64,000 bases of DNA, taken from contig JAPDJF010000001.1 of assembly GCA_029259185.1 (NCBI GenBank), positions 32,001 through 96,000 of the forward strand, in the 5' to 3' direction. The notes below the pieces were generated by a model that saw only the letters and a list, made by a program, of their open reading frames with translations, was not told the origin of the DNA and ran no database searches. The position numbers and the translations under genes are program-made. The DNA comes from Hadesarchaea archaeon. GTDB taxonomy: Archaea > Hadarchaeota > Hadarchaeia > Hadarchaeales > WYZ-LMO6. Position 1 is the first letter of the stretch. Every line of letters starts with the position of its first letter. Shown here in pieces: positions 5,881-50,480 of the stretch.

Positions 5881-6432
5881 ATGGGGGGGCGGAAAGGGAT
5901 CAAGAGAGTTTTCATCCCACTTGTGAAGAACGATTTTATCTATGAGGTACTTTCCTTCTTTCTTTGCATCGGTATCTTGTACTTTTCCCATCAGGGAATC
6001 CTGATGTTGGCCCTGGACTGCGATACCCCCCTCATGCCTGTCATCTCGAATAGCATGCAACACCACAGCGAGAGCTGGAAAGTACCATACGAGCAGATGG
6101 GTTATGACCCCTCCCAGTTTCCGTTTCAGGGGGGATTCGAGAGGGGCGATCTTCTTGTGATAAAGGGTGTAGATTCACCTAGTGAGATATCGGTCGGAGA
6201 TGTGGTGGTATACCAGCGAGTGCCGGGTACGATACCGGTGGTGCATAGGGTGCTATCGAAGTCAGAAGACGGACAGATCATCGTCCTGAAAGGGGATGCG
6301 AATTCGAGTCCGGATCCGAGCATATCTTTCGAGATGGTTAGGGGAAAGGTGATATTGGCAATCCCTAACCTCGGTTGGTTCTCTATATCAGTTTGGAAGT
6401 ACAGATGGCTTTGCACAAAAATTAGCCCCTGA
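5881..6432 (+). CDS. Signal peptidase I (Sec11-type); last 8 aa derive from the inserted element
   Basis: S.SM, RGDL, GDVVVY, VVHRV and KGDAN motifs plus transmembrane segments. The native stop TGA is split by the insertion at 6408. Confidence 0.9.
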   Translation: MGGRKGIKRVFIPLVKNDFIYEVLSFFLCIGILYFSHQGILMLALDCDTPLMPVISNSMQHHSESWKVPYEQMGYDPSQFPFQGGFERGDLLVIKGVDSPSEISVGDVVVYQRVPGTIPVVHRVLSKSEDGQIIVLKGDANSSPDPSISFEMVRGKVILAIPNLGWFSISVWKYRWLCTKISP

Positions 6433-7560
6433 GGCCAATTTCCGTGCTTGGGGGCTCGGAGTCCCCCTCAAGGGCCGAAAGCCCTACGGCCCCGTCCCTG
6501 AGCCAGTGGCCCAGGAACCTCTCTCCAATGTTTATGGCTCCGTTGAGGTCGGCGTTGTACTCGAGGCCACACGAGGGACATTTGAAGAAGCCTTGAGAGA
6601 CCCTTCGTCCTTCGTTTCCGCAGCGGTGGCACGTTCGGCTGGTGTACGCCTCGCCGGCGTGCACCACGGGGATCCCCTCCCAGAGAGCCTTGTACTCGAT
6701 GTACCTTGACAGCCGGTGGTGGGGCATCGAGTGCACGATGCGCCTGAACCTCCGCCCCTTTGCCCGCTTGCGGATTCCCTTCAGATCTCCTATCACGATA
6801 ACCGAGTTCCGCTCCTTAGCTTCGCTGACGATAGCCCTTGAGATCTTGTGGCACAGGTCGTCTATTCGCCGGCGCTCCGTTCTGCCTATCCGCTTGATCA
6901 CCCGCAGTAGCTTGCGCTCGCCGAGTCGCTTTCGGAGCCAAGCGTAGTGGCGCCTTATCCCCCTTGCTTCCTTCCCGTAGAGCTTGGGGGAGGTGATGTT
7001 GGCCTCCTTCTGCAGCGCCACAGACGCCGCGAGAAAGCGCTCCCCCAAGTCCACTGCGAGGACGCCGGAGGGACGCATCGGCTTGACCCTACGCTTGACC
7101 GTGAGGTGGAGGAAGAACCTCCCGTTGCGGTGGACGAGCTGTGAGTCGGAGATCTCAACCCTACCCGAGGAGAGAAGCTCCTCGTGGGAGCGCCACATCC
7201 GCAGCGGGCACCAGATGCGCCCGCCGGGGGTTGAAACGGATACGAAAAACCTGGCGAACCTGTTTCCGGTGTCGGTGAGCTTGAATGAGTCCTTATCGAT
7301 GAGGATGGGAGCCTTCCGCCTGTCCCCGGCCTTCCAAGCTAAAGCACGGCAGTAGTAGGAGGGCAACCTCGTTTGCTCTCTCAGAGTCCGGTAGTCCCTC
7401 TCAAGGGCCTGGGCGCGATCCCACTCGGCTTGGAGGTCCTCCAGAAGCTTGCGCTTGAACCGGGTGAGGCCGTAGAGTTCAGCCCTTATCGTCTTGGAGA
7501 CCAACATCGAACGTGGTCTGTCGGAACCATTTTAAGTTTTCCGGTATTTTTGTGCAAAGC
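6408..7560 (-). mobile_element. TIR-bounded TnpB-only element, full-length copy (1153 bp)
   Basis: Perfect 15-bp TIR GCTTTGCACAAAAAT; direct repeat AGTACAGATG at 6398-6407 and 7562-7571; single tnpB ORF. Confidence 0.92.
6422..7507 (-). CDS. tnpB: TnpB RNA-guided nuclease (361 aa, rearranged RuvC-II)
   Basis: RuvC-I AVDLG; RuvC-II IVIGDL with a downstream GEAYTS; CHRC...CPSC zinc finger; RuvC-III NADLNGAINI. Confidence 0.95.
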   Translation of the reverse strand: MLVSKTIRAELYGLTRFKRKLLEDLQAEWDRAQALERDYRTLREQTRLPSYYCRALAWKAGDRRKAPILIDKDSFKLTDTGNRFARFFVSVSTPGGRIWCPLRMWRSHEELLSSGRVEISDSQLVHRNGRFFLHLTVKRRVKPMRPSGVLAVDLGERFLAASVALQKEANITSPKLYGKEARGIRRHYAWLRKRLGERKLLRVIKRIGRTERRRIDDLCHKISRAIVSEAKERNSVIVIGDLKGIRKRAKGRRFRRIVHSMPHHRLSRYIEYKALWEGIPVVHAGEAYTSRTCHRCGNEGRRVSQGFFKCPSCGLEYNADLNGAINIGERFLGHWLRDGAVGLSALEGDSEPPSTEIGLRG

Positions 7561-17388: not shown

Positions 17389-17975
17389 GCTTTGCACAAA
17401 AATACCGGAAAACTTAAAATGGTTCCGACAGACCACGTTCGATGTTGGCCTCCAAGACGATAAGAGCTGAACTCTACGGCCTCACCCGGTTCAAGCGCAA
17501 GCTTCTGGAGGACCTCCAAGCCGAGTGGGATCGCGCCCAAGCCCCTTGAGAGGCCGGACTCTGAGAGAGCAAACGAGGCTGCCCTCCTACTACTGCCGTG
17601 CTTTAGCCTGGAAGGCTGGCGATGGGCGGAAGGCTCCCATCCTCATCGATAAGGACTCATTCAAGCTCACCGACACCGGAAACAGTTCGCCAGGTTTTTC
17701 GTATCCGTTTCAACCCCCGGCGGGTGTACGCCGGCGAGGCATACACCAGCAAATGTGCCACTGGAAACGAAGGACGAAGGGTCTCTCAAGGCTTCTTCAA
17801 ATGCTCGTCGTGTGGGCTGGAGTACAACGCCGACCTCAACGGAGCCATAAATATTGGAGAGGGGTTCCTGGGCCACTGGCTCAGGGACGAAGGCGTGGGG
17901 CTTTCGGCCCTTAGGGGATCCCGAGCCCCCAAGCACGGAAATTGGCCTCAGGGGCTAATTTTTTTTGTGCAGAGC
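17389..17975 (+). mobile_element. Internally deleted copy of the TIR-TnpB element (587 bp)
   Basis: Ends GCTTTGCACAAAAA and TTTTTGTGCAGAGC; perfect 11-bp TSD CAGAGACCTCT (17378-17388, 17976-17986); near-identical to both ends of 6408-7560. Confidence 0.93.
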
Positions 17976-17990
17976 CAGAGACCTCTCAGG

Positions 17991-19538
17991 TCACTCCCAC
18001 TCTATGGTAGCTGGAGGCTTGTGGGTGATGTCGTATACCACCCGGCTTACTTGGGGGATCTCGTTAGTGATTCTCGTGGAGATCCTCTCCATAAGGTCAT
18101 GGGGTAATTTTGCATAGCTCGCCGTCATTCCATCCACACTCTCAACCGCTCTTATGGCTACTGTGTATCCGTACGCTCTCGCATCCCCTTTCACACCCGT
18201 GGATTTCGTGTCCAAGAGAACCGCGAAATATTGCCAGAGGGATCCCTTAACTTCATGCTTTTCGATTTCCTCCCTCACTATTGCATCCACCCTCTTGAGT
18301 ATCTCGATCTTCTCCTTAGTCACCTCACCGATTATCCTTATGGCCAATCCAGGGCCGGGAAAAGGCTGTCTGTTCACTATACTTTCGGGTATTCCAAGGG
18401 ATCGGGCTATTTTCCTGACCTCGTCCTTGTATAACTCTCTCAAGGGTTCCACCACCCCCTTGAACTTGATTTCGGTCGGGAGACCACCCACGTTGTGATG
18501 GGTTTTTATCTTCTCGGAGTGTTTCGAAGCCCCTGACTCTATCCTGTCCGGATAGATCGTTCCTTGGATGAGGTATTCCGCCTCGCTCTCTTCTGCTACT
18601 TTCTCGAACACATGGATGAATTCTTCCCCGATGATCTTCCTCTTAAGCTCGGGATCGCTTACCCCCCTGAGCTTTTCCATAAACCGTTTTCGTTCGTCTA
18701 AGACGAGGAGATTCATCCCAAGCTCGGTAAAAGTCTTCTTTATACTCTCTGGTTCCCCCTCCCTCATGAATCCGTGGTCAACGAAGACGGCTGTCAAATT
18801 TCTCCCCACGGCCTTAGCGGCTAGCACAGCAGCTGTGCTTGAGTCTATTCCACCACTCAGGGCGATGATACATTTCGAGTTTCCAACCTTTTCCCTGATC
18901 TCCTCAACGCACTTTTTCACGAAGTTTTCGGGTGTCCAGTTCGGAACACATCCACATATCTCGAAAAGGAAGTTCCTCAGCAACATCTTTCCTCTGGGTG
19001 TGTGGACGACCTCGGGGTGCCACTGGACTCCATAGAGGGGTTTGTGTCTGTGGCGGAACGCAGCTACTGGGCAATTTTCGGTGTGTGCGAGTATCTCAAA
19101 CTCTTCGGGCATTTCGTACACGGTGTCTCCATGGCTTGTCCAAACTCTCTCGACCTTTTGGTGTCCTTTCAGCAAGGTGTCGGTTACATCCACATAGACT
19201 TCGGTGATACCGTATTCCATTTTGTCTCCCTTCCTCACATCACCCCCCATGTAATGGGCTACCAGCTGGTGACCATAGCATATCCCCAAGATGGGCAACC
19301 CCATCTCGAGTATTTCCTTCCGGCATCGGGGAGCCCCTTTCTCATAGATGCTGGAGGGCCCTCCCGAGAGGATGATCCCTTTCACCGAGTATTCATCATC
19401 AAAAGATCGAATCTCCTCGGGCGTGATATCCGGAGGGACGATCTCGGCATACACCTCCTCTTCCCTGATTCTCCGTTTGATCAAGTGGCAGTACTGCCCG
19501 CCGAAGTTCAAGACAAGCACGACATCAGTTTTCATCAA
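17991..19538 (-). CDS. guaA: GMP synthase, fused GATase + ATPPase
   Basis: GICYG, HPE, SGGIDS and KPPATIEWE motifs. Confidence 0.97.
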   Translation of the reverse strand: MMKTDVVLVLNFGGQYCHLIKRRIREEEVYAEIVPPDITPEEIRSFDDEYSVKGIILSGGPSSIYEKGAPRCRKEILEMGLPILGICYGHQLVAHYMGGDVRKGDKMEYGITEVYVDVTDTLLKGHQKVERVWTSHGDTVYEMPEEFEILAHTENCPVAAFRHRHKPLYGVQWHPEVVHTPRGKMLLRNFLFEICGCVPNWTPENFVKKCVEEIREKVGNSKCIIALSGGIDSSTAAVLAAKAVGRNLTAVFVDHGFMREGEPESIKKTFTELGMNLLVLDERKRFMEKLRGVSDPELKRKIIGEEFIHVFEKVAEESEAEYLIQGTIYPDRIESGASKHSEKIKTHHNVGGLPTEIKFKGVVEPLRELYKDEVRKIARSLGIPESIVNRQPFPGPGLAIRIIGEVTKEKIEILKRVDAIVREEIEKHEVKGSLWQYFAVLLDTKSTGVKGDARAYGYTVAIRAVESVDGMTASYAKLPHDLMERISTRITNEIPQVSRVVYDITHKPPATIEWE

Positions 19539-21844: not shown

Positions 21845-21953
21845 GCCCCGGTGGTGTAGACCGGTCAAGGAGGAAGCTCCGCCGAAATCATACAGCCCTT
21901 TCGAGCAACGAGGACAGGCTGTGACGTGGGTTCAAATCCCGCCCGGGGCACCA
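21845..21953 (+). tRNA. tRNA-Glu(TTC) with two introns (21868-21886 in the D-loop; 21904-21915 at 37/38)
   Basis: Removing both BHB-bounded segments gives a complete cloverleaf GCCCCGG...CT TTC GA...TTCAAATC...CCGGGGCA CCA. Confidence 0.92.
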
Positions 21954-25517: not shown

Positions 25518-25602
25518 GCGAGGGTGGCCGAGCCAGGTCAAAGGCGTAAGCCTTAGGAGCTTATCCCGTAGGGGTTCGAGGGTTCAAATCCCTCCCCTCG
25601 CA
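25518..25602 (+). tRNA. tRNA-Leu(TAG)
   Basis: GCGAGGG/CCCTCGC acceptor stem, TAAGC-CTTAGGA-GCTTA anticodon arm, long variable arm, TTCAAATC; CCA not encoded. Confidence 0.95.
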
Positions 25603-28194: not shown

Positions 28195-29589
28195 ATGCTT
28201 GCAGGAATAAAAAAGGCGGCCGAAATCATAAGGAAGCACAGGGGCGACTTGGTTGAGATCATTTCACACATGGACGCGGATGGTGTTTGTGCAGCGGCTA
28301 TAATGTCTAGGGCCTTGGATAGGGAGAACGTGGAGCACAGGGTCAAGTTCGTCCGCATGCTCTACAGGGATGTGGTTGAGAAGCTGGATCCTGCTCCACT
28401 CACGATATTCACAGACCTTGGAAGTTCCCAGCTTGAAAATCTTCGGCAAAGCTATCGTTCAGCTCGGGTGATAATCTGTGACCACCACCCCCCACAGCGG
28501 GTGGATGGGTTGGAGGGTCTGGTTCACCTCAACGCTTACGAGATGGGAATGGACGGGCTCAAAGAGATAAGTGGGGCTGGTATGGCGTTTCTGCTAGCTA
28601 GGGAACTCAATCGAAAGAACTCAGACCTCTCCGCGTTGGCAGTGATCGGGGCGATCGGAGATATCCAGAACGCATGGGGGAAGCTCTCGGGTAGTAACCG
28701 GGAGATCCTGAATGAAGGAATGAGGGCAAAAGTGCTCGATCGGAGAATAGATCTGCAGCTATACGGGAGATATACCAAACCTCTATTCCAGAGCTTAGAG
28801 AGTTTCTCGGATCCACCAATTGAGGGCGTGACCAATTCTAGTGCTGGTTGTATGGAGTTGATCCGCTCGCTCGGAATACCTGTGAAAGGGGAAAATGGAT
28901 GGAGACGGTTGGCGGATCTCAGTGAGCACGAGAGACGTATGTTGGCAACTGAGCTCATATCACGTGCTCTCTCCAGCGTTCCGGAGGAATTCATCCCATA
29001 CGTTCCGAATCTGATAGTTGGGGAGTGCTATACGATCCTCGGTGAGGATGAGAACTCGGAACTGAGAGACGCTGGGGAGTTCGCTACGTGTCTGAACTCC
29101 ACCGCTAGACACGAGCAACCACTGATAGGGCTTGAGGTCGCGAAGGGAGATAGGGGTGCATATTACCGCGCTATGCTTAACCTCCTACACCACCACCGGC
29201 GCGCTATAGCGAGGGGGATGGAATTCATAGAAACCGAAGGATTGAAGGTTGGCGATGGCGGCTACCTCCAATACTTCGACGCGACGGGTGTGGTGAAAGA
29301 GACATTCGTGGGGACTCTCGCCAGTCTTTCCCTCGGCTCCCGAGTGGCGGATCCATACAAGCCTGTCGTTGGGACAGTCCGGGAAGGGGGTATGGCGAAG
29401 GTCTCAGCGAGGTGCTCAAAACTTCTCTTTTTGAGGGGGCTGGATCTGGCCGCCGCTATCAAGGAGGCTGCGGAGGAGGTTGGTGGGGAAGGGGGAGGGC
29501 ACCCCATCGCTTCGGGTGCGCAGGTCGAGGAGGAGAGAATATCCGAGTTCCTCCACAGCCTTGAGCAGAACATACTGCGGCAACTCTGA
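28195..29589 (+). CDS. DHH/DHHA1 phosphoesterase, RecJ/Cdc45(GAN)-like
   Basis: H.DADG, DLG, DHH, GD.Q and GGGH motifs. Confidence 0.9.
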   Translation: MLAGIKKAAEIIRKHRGDLVEIISHMDADGVCAAAIMSRALDRENVEHRVKFVRMLYRDVVEKLDPAPLTIFTDLGSSQLENLRQSYRSARVIICDHHPPQRVDGLEGLVHLNAYEMGMDGLKEISGAGMAFLLARELNRKNSDLSALAVIGAIGDIQNAWGKLSGSNREILNEGMRAKVLDRRIDLQLYGRYTKPLFQSLESFSDPPIEGVTNSSAGCMELIRSLGIPVKGENGWRRLADLSEHERRMLATELISRALSSVPEEFIPYVPNLIVGECYTILGEDENSELRDAGEFATCLNSTARHEQPLIGLEVAKGDRGAYYRAMLNLLHHHRRAIARGMEFIETEGLKVGDGGYLQYFDATGVVKETFVGTLASLSLGSRVADPYKPVVGTVREGGMAKVSARCSKLLFLRGLDLAAAIKEAAEEVGGEGGGHPIASGAQVEEERISEFLHSLEQNILRQL

Positions 29590-29618
29590 GTTTTCCGTGT
29601 ACTTTGAGGCCTCTTTCT

Positions 29619-29913
29619 TGACCACCGCAAGGAGACCCCATCCGAAAGGGCGGGGAGGGATTGTGACCATTGCCGGCAGGACTTTCGGGCGCGGTCACTC
29701 CACCGTGGGTGCTCACGGTAGCACCCCCGGCGGTTCGGATATACCGAGCCGCCTCAGTCAGGTTCCGACCAGCTTTGCGGCTTTCGCCCGATGCACTTCT
29801 ATTTCGGAGAGTTGACCGCCAAGCGCGTTTGACGCCTGCTGGGTGGCGTTCTCCGAAGCCCACGCCCCATACGAAAGAGGCGTGTTGATCTCCTTCGGAA
29901 CCTAACCGGCCAT
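29619..29913 (-). ncRNA. Unannotated highly structured RNA candidate, about 295 nt
   Basis: 14-bp helix 29895-29908/29755-29768 with two G-U pairs only on the minus strand, at least seven further stems, potential pseudoknots, and TATATTTA at 29939-29932. Confidence 0.7.
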
Positions 29914-29947
29914 TGGTTTGTTGTTTCTCCGTAAATATACCGCCTCG

Positions 29948-31711
29948 CTAACCCCTCCCTTTCGGAAAGGGACTGCGTTCTGCATTGAGTTCACCTCCTT
30001 TTCGCCCGTGCTGGGTGCGGTACATCTGCATGATCTCTTCGATGGTGGTTGCCTCCTCGGGCCTGCGATCTTCCCTTATCCGAATGAACCTCGGGAACCT
30101 TAGCCCTACACCTCCAGTGTGCTTTTCGGGTGGACTCAGCTGGATTTCTTCAAACGCTACTTCAAAAATTACCTCGGGTTTGAAGTAAGCGTCGCACTCT
30201 ATTTCGATGTCCACCTCATCCGAGGGCTTCTCGAGCTTGATACGGTTAAAGAACTCAGTGAGTTCTTTTAGATCTTTGTCCGTGTATCCACTACCACATC
30301 GAGTAACAGTCTTATATCTCCCGGTTTTTTCATCTCTGGCTGCGAGTACATAGCTTCCGAAGGTTCCAGCCCTTTTTCCTTTTCCATAATGTGCTCCCAC
30401 GACCACAAGGTCGACCGTGTCTACTTCGGGCTTAAGTTTGAGCCAGAGAAACTCCCTCCTCCCAGCTCGATACGGAGATTCTAGATCTTTCGCAACGAGT
30501 CCCTCATGGCCGAGGCTGAGGGAGTGCTTTAGGAACTTCAGGATGTCTTCCTTCTTCCCGGTTACTATTTTTTCCACTATCATGACCTTGCCGGGAACGG
30601 ATGTAACGATCTGTTCGAGGATCTCTCTCCTCTCCTTGTAGGGCTTGTCGATAACACTTCTCCCCTCGACCATCAACACGTCGAATAGATATATCTCGAT
30701 CGGAATTTGTTCAGCGGCTTTCTCTATTCCATACTTCCTTCTTCGCTTTAGCACTTCTTGGAATGGCATGGGTTTCTGGCGATCTTTGTCCATTGCGACA
30801 AGTTCTCCGTCGACTATCACCCTTTTTGGATTCAGGGCCTTACGTATTGGATCCACGAGGTCTGGAAACATGGAGGTGTAGTCCTCCATCCTCCGAGTGA
30901 AGAGGGTGATCTTATCCTCGTTTTTGTGGGTCTGAATTCTTATCCCATCCAGCTTTATCTCGAAAGCCGCTTTTCCCCCCATTCGCTCTAGGATCTCGTC
31001 CACACTCTCCGCTCGTTGGGCTAGCATAGGACTCACGGGGTGTCCGAGAGTGACGCCTAGCTTCCTCAGAGTTCCCACCCCTTGCGCCGCCGCTTTCGCT
31101 ACGATCGCATAGTCGGTGGTGAGCATGTAGGCATGTTCTACGATTTCGGGGGGCAAGTTGAAGGTTGCCGCTATAGCGTCCCTCATTCTCCCCTCGGCCA
31201 CCCCTATCCTGAGATCCCCCAGCACGGTTCTAACGATGAACTTTGCCTCGATGGGGGTGGCGCTCGTCAGGAGTTCTGAAATGAGTGCGATCTTCCGGTC
31301 CACCGATCCCTCCCCTGTTACATCGGGGAGAGATTTCACTCTATCGAATACTTTTTCTACCGTGAGCGGTTCTGAAAAGAGAACGACCTGTTTCCTCCTT
31401 TCGGCTAGGAGCTTAGCGACCTCTCCCAGATCCCCGATACGGGCCATCAAGTTTTCTATCTCTTTTAGTGAGTGACCGGAGGCTGTGCTGATAGCCTTTT
31501 TCATTTGTTGGATTCCCACCCCAGTTTCCTTCGAGACATAAGTTGGCCACGGTCTTCCGAGGAGAAGGTAGACCACACGATCCATTTCTTCCACCGCCGT
31601 CCGTTTCAGGAGATCCACGATTATGGCATTTTTCTCCAAGTAACCCGATGCCTGCTCCAATTTCTCCAGTGCTTCGGCTAAAACTCTGTAGAGCATTCGC
31701 CCCACTCCCAA
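29948..31711 (-). CDS. lig: ATP-dependent DNA ligase
   Basis: EIKLDGIR, DGEL, FDVL, EGLVAK, WLKLK and LRFPRF motifs. Confidence 0.98.
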   Translation of the reverse strand: MGVGRMLYRVLAEALEKLEQASGYLEKNAIIVDLLKRTAVEEMDRVVYLLLGRPWPTYVSKETGVGIQQMKKAISTASGHSLKEIENLMARIGDLGEVAKLLAERRKQVVLFSEPLTVEKVFDRVKSLPDVTGEGSVDRKIALISELLTSATPIEAKFIVRTVLGDLRIGVAEGRMRDAIAATFNLPPEIVEHAYMLTTDYAIVAKAAAQGVGTLRKLGVTLGHPVSPMLAQRAESVDEILERMGGKAAFEIKLDGIRIQTHKNEDKITLFTRRMEDYTSMFPDLVDPIRKALNPKRVIVDGELVAMDKDRQKPMPFQEVLKRRRKYGIEKAAEQIPIEIYLFDVLMVEGRSVIDKPYKERREILEQIVTSVPGKVMIVEKIVTGKKEDILKFLKHSLSLGHEGLVAKDLESPYRAGRREFLWLKLKPEVDTVDLVVVGAHYGKGKRAGTFGSYVLAARDEKTGRYKTVTRCGSGYTDKDLKELTEFFNRIKLEKPSDEVDIEIECDAYFKPEVIFEVAFEEIQLSPPEKHTGGVGLRFPRFIRIREDRRPEEATTIEEIMQMYRTQHGRKGGELNAERSPFPKGRG

Positions 31712-31804: not shown

Positions 31805-32674
31805 GTGGGGGGAAGGGAGAAAAGGATGAGACCCCCTAAGGCCCTCTTGGAAAGCGCATTGGACTTGGCGTCCAAGGTTAAGGCGAAAGCTTTGCTAGTG
31901 TTAGCTTCGACTGAGCAAGACTTGGTTCCTCTTCTTTCAGAAAATGGATTAAAGCTTGTGGTTGCGACGACAGACGACCACCTCTACCGAGAATTGAAAA
32001 AGGTCGTTGACGGTGGGGCACTTAAGCTCACGTTTTTGCCCCGGGGACGGGAGAAGAAGATCGTACACGCGGTTTCGTGCGGGCTGAGCGAAGGGTTGTT
32101 TTCAGAGGGGGATCGGCTGGTGTGTTTGGTTGGGGAGGGTTCCATCTCCTTTGATTCCATCTTCGTCCATGAAGTCTCAGGCGGGGAGTCAGTGTTTTCC
32201 CTTATTGAATCCCACCCAGTTCACAGGTCGATCGTGGAGCTGGCATTAGAACTCGGACACCCGAGGGCAGGAGGTCCGGTTGGATCAGCTTTCCTCGTGG
32301 GTGATGAAAGGGCCGTGATGAAAAATTCGCGTCAGCTTATGCCCAATCCGTTCAAAGGTCACAGAATAAGTGTTGTTGATAGGAAGAACTGGGATCTGTT
32401 GAGACGATACGCAACCTTCGATGGAGCGTTCGTGGTGAGGGAGGACGGGCGCGTGTTGGCTGCGATGAGATATCTGGAAGCGAGAGCAGATGTAGGTATC
32501 CCAGTGGGGCTGGGGACGCGTCACCGTGCCGTGGCGGCTGCGACATCGGTCACCAGAGCTATGGGGGTTACGGTTTCTGGTCAGGACGGAGTGGTCAGAG
32601 TGTTTAAAGGAGGTGCGTTGGTGGCATGGATTCACCCTCTCACCCGAAGGTTGGAATCTCTGGAGAAGACTTAA
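31805..32674 (+). CDS. dacZ: Diadenylate cyclase, DacZ-type (PK_C-like + DAC)
   Basis: Intact DGA and GLGTRHRA catalytic motifs with an N-terminal alpha/beta domain. Confidence 0.88.
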   Translation: MGGREKRMRPPKALLESALDLASKVKAKALLVLASTEQDLVPLLSENGLKLVVATTDDHLYRELKKVVDGGALKLTFLPRGREKKIVHAVSCGLSEGLFSEGDRLVCLVGEGSISFDSIFVHEVSGGESVFSLIESHPVHRSIVELALELGHPRAGGPVGSAFLVGDERAVMKNSRQLMPNPFKGHRISVVDRKNWDLLRRYATFDGAFVVREDGRVLAAMRYLEARADVGIPVGLGTRHRAVAAATSVTRAMGVTVSGQDGVVRVFKGGALVAWIHPLTRRLESLEKT

Positions 32675-35904: not shown

Positions 35905-36339
35905 GCTTTGCACAAAAATACCGGAAAACTTAAAATGGTTCCGACAGACCACGTTCGATGTTGGCCTCCAAGACGATAAGAGCTGAACTCTACGGCCTCA
36001 CCCGGTTCAAGCGCAAGCTTCTGGAGGACCTCCAAGCCGAGTGGGATCGCGCCCAGGCCCTTGAGAGGGACTACCGGACTCTGAGAGAGCAAACGAGGCA
36101 TCCACCAGCCGAACGTGCCACCGCTGCGGAAACGAAGGACGAAGGGTCTCTCAAGGCTTCTTCAAATGCTCGTCGTGTGGGCTGGAGTACAACGCCGACC
36201 TCAACGGAGCCATAAATATTGGAGAGGGGTTCTTGGGCCACTGGCTCAGGGACGGGGGCGTGGGGCTTTCGCCCCTTTAGGGGATCCCGAGCCTCCAAGC
36301 ACAAAAATTGGCCTCAGGGCTGATTTTTTTGTGCAGAGC
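35905..36339 (+). mobile_element. Internally deleted copy of the TIR-TnpB element (435 bp)
   Basis: Same TIR ends; CAAACTTTGG on both flanks (35894-35903, 36340-36349); deletion joint at CGAGGC microhomology. Confidence 0.92.
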
Positions 36340-49082: not shown

Positions 49083-50480
49083 GTGGAAACGTTGCGTCCG
49101 GAGATTTCAGCATTCGAGAAGAAGGCGGGAGAAATAGCAAGTTTCTTGGAGGAAAAGCTTGAGGACAGGCCCACGATAGACATCTTCACCCACGCTGATG
49201 CTGATGGGATCTCGGCTGCGAGCATCTTCGCCACGTGTTTGCACGTGAACGACGTGCCTTTCCGGATAAAATTTACCCGCCCATTTGGAGCTCGGGGGAT
49301 ACTCGAACTCGGAAAGCTGGACGATGGGAAGAGGTTCTTCGTCTTTATAGATCAGGGAAGTAGAGAGATCCCGACCATCCGGAAGGCTATATTCAGCAAG
49401 GGGCATGATGTGCTCGTCTTGGATCACCATCCGGGTGGGCCTGTGGATGAGCCTGGCTTGATGTATTTGAACCCACACTTGATGGGAATGAACGGGGCGA
49501 AGGAGGCGTGTGCTTCGACTGTCGTCTATTCGGTGGTAGAGAAAATAGATGAGAGAGTCAAGCATCAGGTGTGGCTGGCCCTCGTTGGGGCGATAGGGGA
49601 TCGTCAAGAATTTCCGAGCGGATTCACCGGCATAAACGAGATACTCTTCAGGAAGGCGGTGGAGAGGGGAGTGGTGACGGTGAAGGAGGGGCTAAAACTC
49701 CTCGACCGCGAATTCTTCCCCGCAGCCGAGTGTTTGAGGCTTTCGGTCAGACCGTACCTCCCAAACGTTTCGGGTAATCCCAGCGCGTGTGTTGAATTAG
49801 TTCAGATGGTGGGTGTCCCTTCTTCCTTGTCGATAGATGAACTCGGTATTGAGAAGGAAAAACTTCTGTGTGATGCGTTGATCGCTAGGCTAGGGATCCC
49901 CGAGAGCGATTTCCATCACGTGGTGTGGGGTCCTGTGTATTACCTCAAAAAGCACAAAGAGTTTCCTAACCTCCGCAAATGGGCTGTGGCCCTTGACGCG
50001 AGTGACACCTACGAGAAGCCGGAGATCGGGTTCGCGGCCAACATGGGCGACGAGGAGGCGAGAGATGAATGCCTCCTTTTGCTTCAAGGATTCGAGCGCA
50101 GGATGCTTGAGAACATGGAGTGGCTCAAACGCAATGTGAGGTCTTTTGAGGTTACCTCCAAGGCGAGGTACGTTCGGGTGGGGAAGGAGGTTCCGGCTTC
50201 GGAGATGGGTGAAATGCTCTCTCTCGCCTTGGAGTCGAGGCTCGTTGAGGCGGATCGTCCCGTGATAGGGTTAGCGGAGGCAAGCGAAGATGAAATGAAG
50301 ATTTCTGGAAGGGCCACCTTTGACTTGACTGCTGGTGGGATAGACATCGGAAAGGCGATGAGCGAAGCGGCAAAAGCCGTCGGCGGGGAGGGAGGAGGAC
50401 ACGATGTTTCAGGTGCTGCTTACGTGCCTAGAGATAGAGTTGATGACTTCATCCGGGTGCTTGAGCAAAACCTGGGCTAA
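49083..50480 (+). CDS. Second DHH/DHHA1 RecJ/Cdc45-like protein
   Basis: HADADG, DHH, GD.Q and GGGH motifs; usual position after rps15. Confidence 0.9.
   Translation: METLRPEISAFEKKAGEIASFLEEKLEDRPTIDIFTHADADGISAASIFATCLHVNDVPFRIKFTRPFGARGILELGKLDDGKRFFVFIDQGSREIPTIRKAIFSKGHDVLVLDHHPGGPVDEPGLMYLNPHLMGMNGAKEACASTVVYSVVEKIDERVKHQVWLALVGAIGDRQEFPSGFTGINEILFRKAVERGVVTVKEGLKLLDREFFPAAECLRLSVRPYLPNVSGNPSACVELVQMVGVPSSLSIDELGIEKEKLLCDALIARLGIPESDFHHVVWGPVYYLKKHKEFPNLRKWAVALDASDTYEKPEIGFAANMGDEEARDECLLLLQGFERRMLENMEWLKRNVRSFEVTSKARYVRVGKEVPASEMGEMLSLALESRLVEADRPVIGLAEASEDEMKISGRATFDLTAGGIDIGKAMSEAAKAVGGEGGGHDVSGAAYVPRDRVDDFIRVLEQNLG

What the first reader, a model, noticed from the sequence alone, without database searches (positions are those of the whole stretch)
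29609..29940. Unannotated ~295-nt, multi-stem RNA with a candidate promoter between the RecJ-like gene and DNA ligase
Seen on the minus strand: TATATTTA about 25 nt upstream; closing UGGCC/GGUCA; 14-bp helix CGGUUAGGUUCCGA/UCGGAACCUGACUG (two G-U pairs set the strand); stems CACGCCUC/GGGGCGUG, UUCGGAGA/UCUCCGAA, ACGCC/GGCGU, GGC-GAAA-GCC, GGCGGCUCGG/CCGAACCGCC, GGGUGCU/AGCACCC and GUGACC/GGUCAC; long-range AAGGAGAUC/GGUCUCCUU, GCAGG/CCUGC and ACCGUG/CACGGU pairings that would form pseudoknots or alternative folds. It lacks the SRP helix-8 motif and the RNase P CR-I/CR-V motifs. From memory, the ordered segments GCC...GCAGGC..AAACG, UAGAAGU, AAGUCCUGCCG and UGGGGUC...GGUCAA resemble the bacterial raiA-motif RNA (unverified). 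Inference: a large archaeal ncRNA of unknown function, possibly a ribozyme or scaffold.
Basis: partly seen in the sequence, partly recalled or inferred. Interest (0 to 1): 0.78.

Follow-up and report, generated by a model that had tools for sequence, protein, structure and literature searches.

The report
Decayed copy of a guide-RNA mini-transposon
The proposed new archaeal RNA is the inside of one damaged copy of a small, four-copy, gene-less IS200/IS605-type transposon that carries its own promoter and a guide-RNA-like fold, so it is a known kind of mobile element and not a new cellular RNA gene.

Summary
The sequence, the TATA box and most local stems are real, and domain 1 folds much better than shuffles (z -3.99). 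It is not SRP RNA or RNase P RNA, whose genes lie on other contigs, and no Rfam family, raiA included, matches the window copy.

It is not a single-copy RNA gene. The about 325 nt from 29991 to 29667 occur four times in this 1.27-Mb archaeal genome at 96-98% identity, each copy in different flanks. Five of five sister-genus genomes have no such sequence between ligase and the RecJ-like gene.

The 5' end is colinear with the left ends of about 20 resident IS200/IS605 elements: a pentanucleotide target, a hairpin, then a TATA box. Three copies end in a typical right-end hairpin. Their last about 125 nt are the genome's best matches to Rfam HgcC, but below threshold. In a related genome an HgcC-like match overlaps the 3' end of tnpB.

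Best reading: a non-autonomous, PATE-like IS200/IS605 element whose left-end promoter drives a TnpB-guide-like (omega) RNA. The window copy has lost its right end to an inverted fragment of another IS end, and it supplies the last 12 codons of DNA ligase.

The 5' 160-190-nt domain has no relatives and stays unexplained. No RNA data exist. Interest is low to moderate.

The parts
29989..29993 (-). Target-like pentanucleotide TGAAC just 5' of the element. The four copies read TGAAC three times and TAAAT once.
   Evidence: The alignment of the four copies with their flanks diverges upstream of this point. Contigs from public runs break at 29988 and 29993. Resident left ends are preceded by TTAAC in the same position.
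29667..29988 (-). The part of the repeat unit shared by all four genomic copies: left end, promoter and structured core.
   Evidence: blastn gives 96-98% identity over 325-328 nt to C8, C19 and C2. Model R1 scores 310-315 bits for all four copies. Contig depth inside is 3-5 times that of the flanks.
29940..29988 (-). Left-end (LE) module. The hairpin is CCCUUUCC-GAAA-GGGAGGGG at 29971-29952 and is followed by GGCGG.
   Evidence: It is colinear with 20 TTAAC-type LE modules found by a hairpin regex, which printed 35 matches in all; 4 of the 35 are the copies of this element.
29932..29939 (-). TATA box TATATTTA, at the position where resident left ends carry their TATA box.
   Evidence: resident LE modules are followed by ATATATAG-type boxes a few nt after GGCGG/GGTGG. 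Transcription itself was not tested.
29755..29911 (-). 5' structured domain: a 14-bp closing helix holding three sub-stems. Its origin is unknown.
   Evidence: z -3.99, 0 of 200 shuffles as good. Nearly invariant in the four copies. No relatives found.
29861..29884 (-). Variable hairpin inside the 5' domain, present as two haplotypes.
   Evidence: 5 of the 10 variable columns of the 250-column alignment lie here. The two changes in the stem keep pairing.
29729..29753 (-). Hairpin GGCGGCUCGG / CCGAACCGCC.
29667..29728 (-). First half of the HgcC-like (omega-RNA-like) module. In this copy it is cut off after GGCAAUGG.
   Evidence: In copies C19 and C8 this stretch plus the right end matches the whole of Rfam HgcC, model positions 1-130, at 29.4 and 25.3 bits. 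The window copy gives no HgcC hit.
29616..29663 (+). Fragment of the left end of a different IS200/IS605 family (family A/B, TTCA target). It lies inverted relative to the element and replaces the element's own right end.
   Evidence: 86-95% identity to at least 13 sites. Seven of them are the left ends of a tnpB element, with a TnpB N-terminus reading away from them.
29948..31711 (-). ATP-dependent DNA ligase. Its last 12 codons and its stop codon (29986-29948) are element sequence.
   Evidence: Pfam. Homology to five orthologues ends at residue 572 of 587, and those orthologues stop 3-9 codons later.
28195..29589 (+). RecJ-like (DHH/DHHA1) gene, convergent with the ligase.
   Evidence: Pfam. 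The same neighbour is found in 5 of 5 relatives.

Best explanation
The stretch is one rearranged copy of a roughly 377-nt non-autonomous IS200/IS605-family element of the PATE (palindrome-associated transposable element) kind. It has no protein gene.

Shown:
- Four copies lie in different places in the genome.
- The left end has the resident architecture: target pentanucleotide, hairpin, TATA box.
- Three copies end in a resident-type right-end hairpin that closes with GGTCAC.
- The element is absent from the same locus in sister genomes.

Inferred: the left-end TATA box starts an RNA of about 320 nt. Its 3' third is an HgcC-like, TnpB-guide (omega) RNA scaffold that ends at the transposon's right border. 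Read-through into the flank would then give a guide, and a TnpB made by one of the many resident tnpB copies could use it in trans to cut empty sites and keep the element in place. Movement would be done in trans by a Y1 TnpA, through single-stranded 'peel-and-paste' transposition.

The window copy has lost the last omega hairpin and the right end, which an inverted left-end fragment of another IS family replaces. It is therefore probably immobile and guide-less. It keeps the promoter and most of the RNA, and it has rewritten the C-terminus of DNA ligase.

My odds: IS200/IS605-derived repeat, about 0.9; the RNA works as an omega RNA with TnpB, about 0.5.
For: Copy number. There are four copies at 96-98% identity with unrelated flanks.

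Left end. Hairpin, GGCGG and TATA box are colinear with 20 resident LE modules.

Right end. The hairpin plus AGGAGGTCAC is shared with 4 other gene-less elements. It falls among the 33 right ends I recognised in the 40 regex hits.

Context. The genome holds 23 TnpB zinc-ribbon hits and 4 Y1 TnpA hits.

Insertion. In 5 of 5 sister-genus genomes the ends of the aligned ligase and RecJ-like parts lie 49-111 nt apart, against about 410 nt here, and none has the element.

Public runs. Depth is 3-5 times higher inside the repeat and contigs break at its borders in runs from 4 studies.

HgcC. The C19 and C8 copies are the two best HgcC hits in the whole genome. Both match model positions 1-130, at E 3.6e-5 and 4.6e-4.

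Link to tnpB. An HgcC-like hit in genome G023 overlaps the 3' end of a tnpB with OrfB_IS605 and TNB domains. It shares colinear blocks with this element; 5 of 500 shuffles reach the local alignment score.

Covariation. The terminal hairpin covaries across 8 HgcC-like sequences: 5 of 8 pairs show compensatory changes.

Literature. PATEs 'often encode omega RNAs' used in trans (Meers et al. preprint, passages). HgcC carries the right-end-like tetraloop of tnpB 3' transcripts, and a PATE RNA is expressed in Halobacterium (Gomes-Filho 2015, passages).
Against: The HgcC matches are below Rfam's threshold (29.4 and 25.3 bits against 50). The C2 copy and the window copy give none.

The 266-nt interior has no significant similarity to the interiors of 6 other resident elements (z -0.7 to 1.7). 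It matches resident TnpB proteins only at the right-end hairpin. No tnpB-bearing parent was found.

The best tnpA copy in the assembly is interrupted by a stop and by frame changes. Two other hits are cut by contig ends. A working transposase is therefore not shown.

No empty-site allele or excision joint was seen in 4 runs.

The left end differs from resident ones in its first about 20 nt, and its target reads TGAAC/TAAAT and not TTAAC.
Confidence: 0.78

Rival explanations
1. The 5' 160-190-nt domain is a passenger: a separate functional RNA module carried by the transposon, for example a processing ribozyme, a scaffold or a regulator. It would not be part of a TnpB guide scaffold.
For: The domain folds far better than shuffles (z -3.99). 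It has no similarity to other resident omega-like interiors or to TnpB coding sequence. It lies upstream of the HgcC-like part, which on its own spans the whole Rfam model. The two stem changes in its variable hairpin keep pairing.
Against: No homologue exists anywhere I searched, so there is no covariation. No ribozyme family in Rfam matches it. Other gene-less elements of this genome also carry 230-300 nt between the ends, and that sequence is traceable to the tnpB 3' end, so a long scaffold is normal here.
Confidence: 0.12
2. It is a family of four host ncRNA genes with their own promoter, and IS ends merely happen to flank them because IS debris saturates the genome.
For: The promoter-like TATA box, the strong fold and the near-invariance of the four copies.
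Against: The repeat borders coincide with the left-end and right-end modules, not with the RNA. The sequence is absent from 65 other genomes of the phylum and from the orthologous locus in 5 of 5 relatives. One copy overwrites the end of a gene.
Confidence: 0.06
3. There is no RNA function. The fold reflects only single-stranded DNA structure of a transposon or decaying filler, and the TATA box is a leftover of the left-end promoter.
For: IS200/IS605 elements move as single strands and rely on DNA hairpins (established knowledge; Meers preprint passages). Both strands fold about equally well. The window copy is visibly damaged.
Against: At least three other gene-less families in this genome keep exactly the left-end promoter plus the tnpB-3'/right-end region, which suggests the RNA region is retained for a reason. 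The match to HgcC covers the whole model. A PATE RNA is expressed in Halobacterium.
Confidence: 0.15

Closest known systems
PATEs (palindrome-associated transposable elements): gene-less IS200/IS605 derivatives of haloarchaea and Geobacillus stearothermophilus
   Same: Left-end and right-end hairpins with no protein gene between them. Several copies. Dependence on TnpA in trans. Often an omega or right-end-derived RNA (passages read).
   Different: This one carries a long interior (about 266 nt) of which only the 3' part looks omega-like. Its left end is a divergent variant of the resident ones. The window copy has lost its right end.
HgcC family RNA (Rfam RF00062)
   Same: The C19 and C8 copies match the whole model colinearly, including the terminal hairpin followed by GAGGAGGUCA.
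   Different: The scores are 29.4 and 25.3 bits, under the curated 50. The window copy does not match. An extra 5' domain of about 190 nt precedes the match.
TnpB omega (right-end) RNAs of IS200/IS605 and IS1341-type elements, also described as sotRNAs
   Same: The RNA lies at the transposon's right end and stops at its border, so the flank would supply a guide. A related HgcC-like hit overlaps a tnpB 3' end in G023.
   Different: There is no tnpB in cis. Transcription would start from a left-end TATA box and not from inside tnpB. Binding to TnpB has not been tested.
Classical MITEs
   Same: Short, non-coding, multi-copy and mobilised in trans.
   Different: Reading the ends and flanks, I saw no terminal inverted repeats and no target-site duplication. 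The ends are subterminal hairpins on one strand, as in IS200/IS605.
raiA-motif RNA, SRP RNA and RNase P RNA
   Same: Size and a multi-stem, GC-rich fold only.
   Different: No Rfam match at E up to 10. The genome's SRP and RNase P genes are elsewhere.

Membership tests
IS200/IS605 non-autonomous element (PATE-like) | Subterminal imperfect hairpins at both ends on the same strand, with no terminal inverted repeats | tested here: met
   The left-end hairpin is present in 4 of 4 copies. A right-end hairpin of resident type is present in 3 of 4 copies. The window copy has only the left end; its right end is replaced.
IS200/IS605 non-autonomous element (PATE-like) | Insertion next to a short conserved target with no target-site duplication | tested here: met
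   TGAAC three times and TAAAT once, directly 5' of the element. The flanks on the two sides are unrelated. Four sites are few.
IS200/IS605 non-autonomous element (PATE-like) | Several copies with conserved ends in different flanks; absent from the orthologous site in relatives | tested here: met
   Four copies. Absent between ligase and the RecJ-like gene in 5 of 5 sister-genus genomes.
IS200/IS605 non-autonomous element (PATE-like) | No protein-coding capacity | tested here: met
   The 4 overlapping ORFs give no Pfam family over threshold. No TnpB zinc-ribbon hit falls in any copy. tblastn with 9 resident TnpB ORFs matches only the right-end hairpin.
IS200/IS605 non-autonomous element (PATE-like) | A Y1 TnpA in the genome that could move it | tested here: inconclusive
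   There are 4 Y1_Tnp hits. The best one shows a stop and frame changes around the catalytic Tyr region, one is truncated, and two are cut by contig ends.
IS200/IS605 non-autonomous element (PATE-like) | Observed excision or presence/absence polymorphism | tested here: inconclusive
   No joint across the element in contigs of 4 runs. Contigs cannot show rare forms.
HgcC (RF00062) / TnpB omega RNA | Score at or above Rfam's gathering threshold (50 bits) | tested here: not met
   29.4 bits (C19), 25.3 bits (C8), and no hit for C2 or for the window copy.
HgcC (RF00062) / TnpB omega RNA | Terminal hairpin plus a conserved 3' tail at the transposon's right border, with flank sequence following | tested here: met
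   Met for C19 and C8, with C2 as a variant. The hairpin covaries in 8 sequences from 6 genomes. Not met by the window copy.
HgcC (RF00062) / TnpB omega RNA | Overlap with, or position just after, the 3' end of tnpB | tested here: not met
   No tnpB in cis in any of the four copies. A related hit in G023 does overlap a tnpB 3' end.
HgcC (RF00062) / TnpB omega RNA | Expression and binding by TnpB | not testable with these tools
   No listed run that holds the stretch is on record as RNA.
Archaeal SRP RNA / RNase P RNA | Match to the Rfam covariance model | tested here: not met
   No hit in the region. The true genes lie at C40:335-665 and C9:21703-21997.
raiA-motif RNA | Match to an Rfam covariance model | tested here: not met
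   No family of Rfam 15 other than four chance-level ones matched at E up to 10. That Rfam holds a raiA model is my recollection.

The most novel reading that the evidence does not exclude
The 5' 160-190-nt domain (29911-29729) is a so far undescribed structured RNA module that rides in a gene-less IS200/IS605 element under the left-end promoter. It could be a large extension of an archaeal TnpB guide scaffold, or a passenger RNA with its own activity, such as processing the guide RNA or acting on the host. In either case transposon ends would be spreading a non-coding RNA gene.
Probability: 0.12. Interest if true: 0.6.

Novelty: new member of a known kind. Interest (0 to 1): 0.3.

Why it matters
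It stops a mobile-element remnant from being recorded as a new archaeal RNA class.

It adds an archaeal example, from a small vent-dwelling lineage, of gene-less IS200/IS605 elements that keep a promoter and a guide-RNA-like module. That fits the idea that guide RNAs can spread on their own and borrow TnpB in trans.

It supports reading the old 'function unknown' HgcC family as TnpB-type guide RNA. Only one paper in the searched library holds both terms.

It shows a transposon rewriting the C-terminus of an essential replication gene.

The unexplained 5' domain is a defined target for anyone with transcriptomes of this lineage.

Tried and rejected
Searches for relatives of the core:
- Model R1 (250 nt, 79 pairs) found only the four own copies. 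It found nothing in 64 other genomes of the order or 65 of the phylum, both under strict filters with only 31-32 candidates scored per genome.
- With laxer filters in 30 relatives the best foreign hit was 15.7 bits at E 0.097.
- A 20-mer scan of genome contigs gave 3 chance hits in bacteria.
- A 22-mer scan of metagenome contigs gave one contig of the same species and one chance hit.
- Two scans of viral contigs found nothing.
- blastn in 40 relatives matched only short hairpin pieces.

Origin of the interior:
- It has no significant similarity to 6 other resident element interiors.
- It has none to 9 resident TnpB ORFs apart from the right-end hairpin.
- Pfam on 4 overlapping ORFs gave only a sub-threshold SpdB hit.

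Expression: no RNA holder is listed among the 8 runs.

Mobility: there is no empty-site joint in contigs of 4 runs.

Other points:
- The RNaseP-T search found nothing, but its control rang nowhere, so it says nothing.
- The reading that the 5' 21 nt are a tnpB remnant ('ELNAER') was dropped. That frame is simply the ligase reading into the element.
- The idea of an IStron-like intron was considered and dropped, because no group I or group II intron model matched and the insertion lies at the very end of the ligase gene.
- One paper search failed on a term format.
- I did not ask for supplementary files of the two papers. They may list PATE or HgcC loci that bear on the comparison.

Full report
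1. THE OBSERVATION

TATATTTA lies at 29939-29932, and the first long helix begins at 29911. The minimum-energy fold of the stretch has -136.6 kcal/mol and z -2.54, and 0 of 100 shuffles fold as well. It contains the 14-bp helix and the stems CACGCCUC/GGGGCGUG, UUCGGAGA/UCUCCGAA, GGC-GAAA-GCC and GGCGGCUCGG/CCGAACCGCC.

The plus strand folds about as well (z -3.19), so energy does not set the strand. The G-U pairs do favour the minus strand. So do two changes between copies that keep pairing only on that strand. The 5' domain alone (29913-29755) has z -3.99, with 0 of 200 shuffles as good.

Rfam 15 at gathering thresholds finds only two tRNAs in the 64-kb window. At E up to 10 it finds four chance-level matches in 29450-30050 and no raiA, SRP, RNase P, intron or large-ncRNA family. 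The genome's RNase P RNA (223.2 bits, contig C9) and SRP RNA (162.9 bits, contig C40) are elsewhere.

2. IT IS A REPEAT

blastn of the stretch against its own genome (1.27 Mb, 54 contigs, 95% complete) finds three more copies, on contigs C8, C19 and C2. They are 96-98% identical over 325-328 nt, and three of the four run on to 360-377 nt. The flanks are unrelated.

A covariance model of the 250-nt core (R1) scores all four copies at 310-315 bits. It scores nothing else in 64 other genomes of the order or 65 of the phylum, nor, with laxer filters, in 30 relatives.

Exact-word scans of the species-representative genomes, the JGI metagenomes and IMG/VR gave one contig of the same species and otherwise only chance hits. 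That contig joins the C8 flank to the window's flank across the repeat.

Contigs of public vent and marine metagenome runs from four studies show 3-5 times more depth inside 29667-29993 than in the flanks. They break at 29616, 29628, 29658, 29667, 29988 and 29993, which are the borders derived below.

3. IT IS AN INSERTION

In all five genomes of the sister genus, the ligase and the RecJ-like gene are convergent neighbours, as they are here. The ends of their aligned parts lie only 49-111 nt apart, against about 410 nt in the window.

Homology of the window's ligase stops at residue 572 of 587. The orthologues end 3-9 codons later. The repeat unit begins at 29988, so the last 12 codons and the stop codon of the window's ligase are element sequence.

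4. THE ENDS ARE IS200/IS605 ENDS

The genome is full of this transposon family. It has 23 TnpB zinc-ribbon hits and 4 Y1 TnpA hits. Eight contig ends finish in one identical right end, and seven sites, five of them at contig ends, carry one identical left end.

A loose hairpin search printed 35 sites. I read 20 of them as left-end modules of one architecture:
- flanks that diverge just before TTAAC;
- a hairpin set in an outer stem;
- then a TATA box;
- then either a tnpA remnant plus tnpB, or only the last 100-300 nt of the element.

Four of the 35 sites are the copies of the element under study. Its first 50 nt are colinear with that architecture. TGAAC (three copies) or TAAAT (one copy) comes first. 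The 'candidate promoter' is therefore the left-end promoter of a transposon.

At the other side, copies C19 and C8, and in a variant form C2, end in a hairpin followed by AGGAGGTCAC, after which the flanks diverge. The same 40-nt module closes three copies of another gene-less element of about 300 nt, and a fourth element. It belongs to the 33 right ends that I recognised among 40 regex hits.

Reading the ends and flanks, I saw no terminal inverted repeat and no target duplication. No protein is encoded. These are the defining traits of a non-autonomous IS200/IS605 element, the kind called PATE in haloarchaea and Geobacillus (passages read).

5. THE WINDOW COPY IS DAMAGED

After GGCAATGG (29667) the window copy does not continue into its own right end. 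Positions 29663-29616 are 86-95% identical to at least 13 sites in the genome. Seven of those sites are the left end of a tnpB element, whose TnpB N-terminus reads away from the end on the opposite strand. Five more are the left end of a derivative of about 295 nt.

This piece lies inverted relative to the element.

6. WHAT THE INTERIOR IS

Scanning the complete C19 copy against Rfam gave a match over the whole of HgcC (RF00062, model 1-130) at 29.4 bits, with E 5.5e-5 for the locus. The match covers the last about 112 nt of the element plus 13 nt of flank, and includes the terminal hairpin and the tail GAGGAGGUCA.

Over the whole genome, the C19 and C8 copies are the two best HgcC hits (29.4 and 25.3 bits; E 3.6e-5 and 4.6e-4). 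Both are below the curated 50 bits.

In the order, 6 of 65 genomes, the own genome included, have such sub-threshold hits; the best is 48.6 bits. The hit in G023:C19 overlaps the 3' end of a tnpB that carries OrfB_IS605 and TNB domains. It shares colinear blocks with this element; 5 of 500 shuffles reach the local alignment score.

The terminal hairpin covaries across eight such sequences, with 5 of 8 pairs showing compensatory changes.

Gomes-Filho et al. 2015 (abstract and one Results passage read) linked HgcC to the right-end tetraloop of tnpB 3' transcripts, and showed a PATE-derived RNA expressed in Halobacterium. The Meers et al. preprint (passages read) states that PATEs often encode omega RNAs that TnpB from other elements must use in trans.

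Other gene-less families in this genome keep the left-end promoter plus the tnpB-3'/right-end region. I therefore read the 3' third of the element as a TnpB-guide-type scaffold. This is an inference from position, from a sub-threshold model match and from analogy. It is not shown.

7. WHAT STAYS UNEXPLAINED

They have no detectable relative. They are not similar to the interiors of six other resident elements or to resident TnpB coding sequence. Among the four copies they vary mainly in one hairpin (29884-29861), which holds 5 of the 10 variable columns.

This part may be a lineage-specific extension of the guide scaffold, degenerated filler, or a passenger RNA.

Three things were not obtained:
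- No RNA run holds the stretch.
- No excision form was seen.
- The best tnpA copy in this draft assembly is interrupted, so present-day mobility is open.

8. VERDICT

The finding is a real, strongly folding, promoter-bearing sequence. It is one decayed copy of a four-copy PATE-like IS200/IS605 element with an HgcC-like guide-RNA module. It is not a new cellular ncRNA and not a raiA relative. It is a new member of a known kind, and interest is low to moderate.

Noticed in passing
window 29861-29884 (-): Half of all differences among the four copies (5 of 10 variable columns in 250) lie in one 24-nt hairpin. It occurs as two haplotypes, C1/C2 against C8/C19. The two stem changes keep pairing and the rest are in the loop. 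In the metagenome contig L030 the C8 flank carries the other haplotype, which suggests exchange between copies or a chimeric assembly.
   Followed up: partly
window 6422-7531 (-), 17607-18107 (+), 36065-36280 (+): One full-length tnpB ORF (369 aa) and two tnpB fragments lie in the same window (C1:38422-39531, 49607-50107, 68065-68280).
   Followed up: partly
window about 19638 (+) and about 61096 (-): Two more TTAAC-type left-end modules with a TATA box, each followed by a roughly 45-codon ORF. The end of that ORF matches the C-terminus of TnpA, so it looks like an internally deleted tnpA.
   Followed up: partly
G000:C9:41900-42520 (-): The best Y1 TnpA copy in the assembly has its HUH motif in one frame and the catalytic SPSYF stretch in another, with a stop between them. 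Either the gene is broken or the draft has homopolymer errors.
   Followed up: partly
G000:C8:47479-47940 and six other sites (C10, C5, C15 twice, C26, C25, C18): A second repeat of at least 450 nt abuts the right end of the C8 copy. By eye, its start encodes a MerR-like helix-turn-helix, as in IS607-type serine recombinases. That naming is recalled and was not tested.
   Followed up: no
L044 (G023:C19:18864-21985), 828-1645 and 1501-1622: An HgcC-like match (32.6 bits) overlaps the 3' end of a frameshifted tnpB. In all, 10 sub-threshold HgcC-like hits lie in 6 of 65 genomes of the order. This supports reading Rfam's 'function unknown' HgcC family as TnpB-type guide RNA.
   Followed up: partly
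window 21845-21950 (+) and 25518-25602 (+): Two tRNA genes. The first has long insertions in the D-loop region (27 nt) and the anticodon-loop region (15 nt), which suggests introns at non-canonical and canonical sites.
   Followed up: no
window 31805-32674 (+): A diadenylate-cyclase-like gene (DAC domain plus the DacZ_P sensor domain, the latter below threshold) lies next to the ligase.
   Followed up: no
G000 contig ends: Most contigs end in 127-nt overlaps. Eight ends share one IS right end, and five more share one IS left end. IS200/IS605 copies are therefore the main cause of fragmentation, and the true copy numbers are higher than the assembled ones.
   Followed up: partly
G000:C2:17480-17531: The C2 copy sits inside debris of another omega-like element, next to a GGATCGAGTC..GGTGGATGAA motif, and is followed directly by an intron-bearing tRNA gene.
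   Followed up: no
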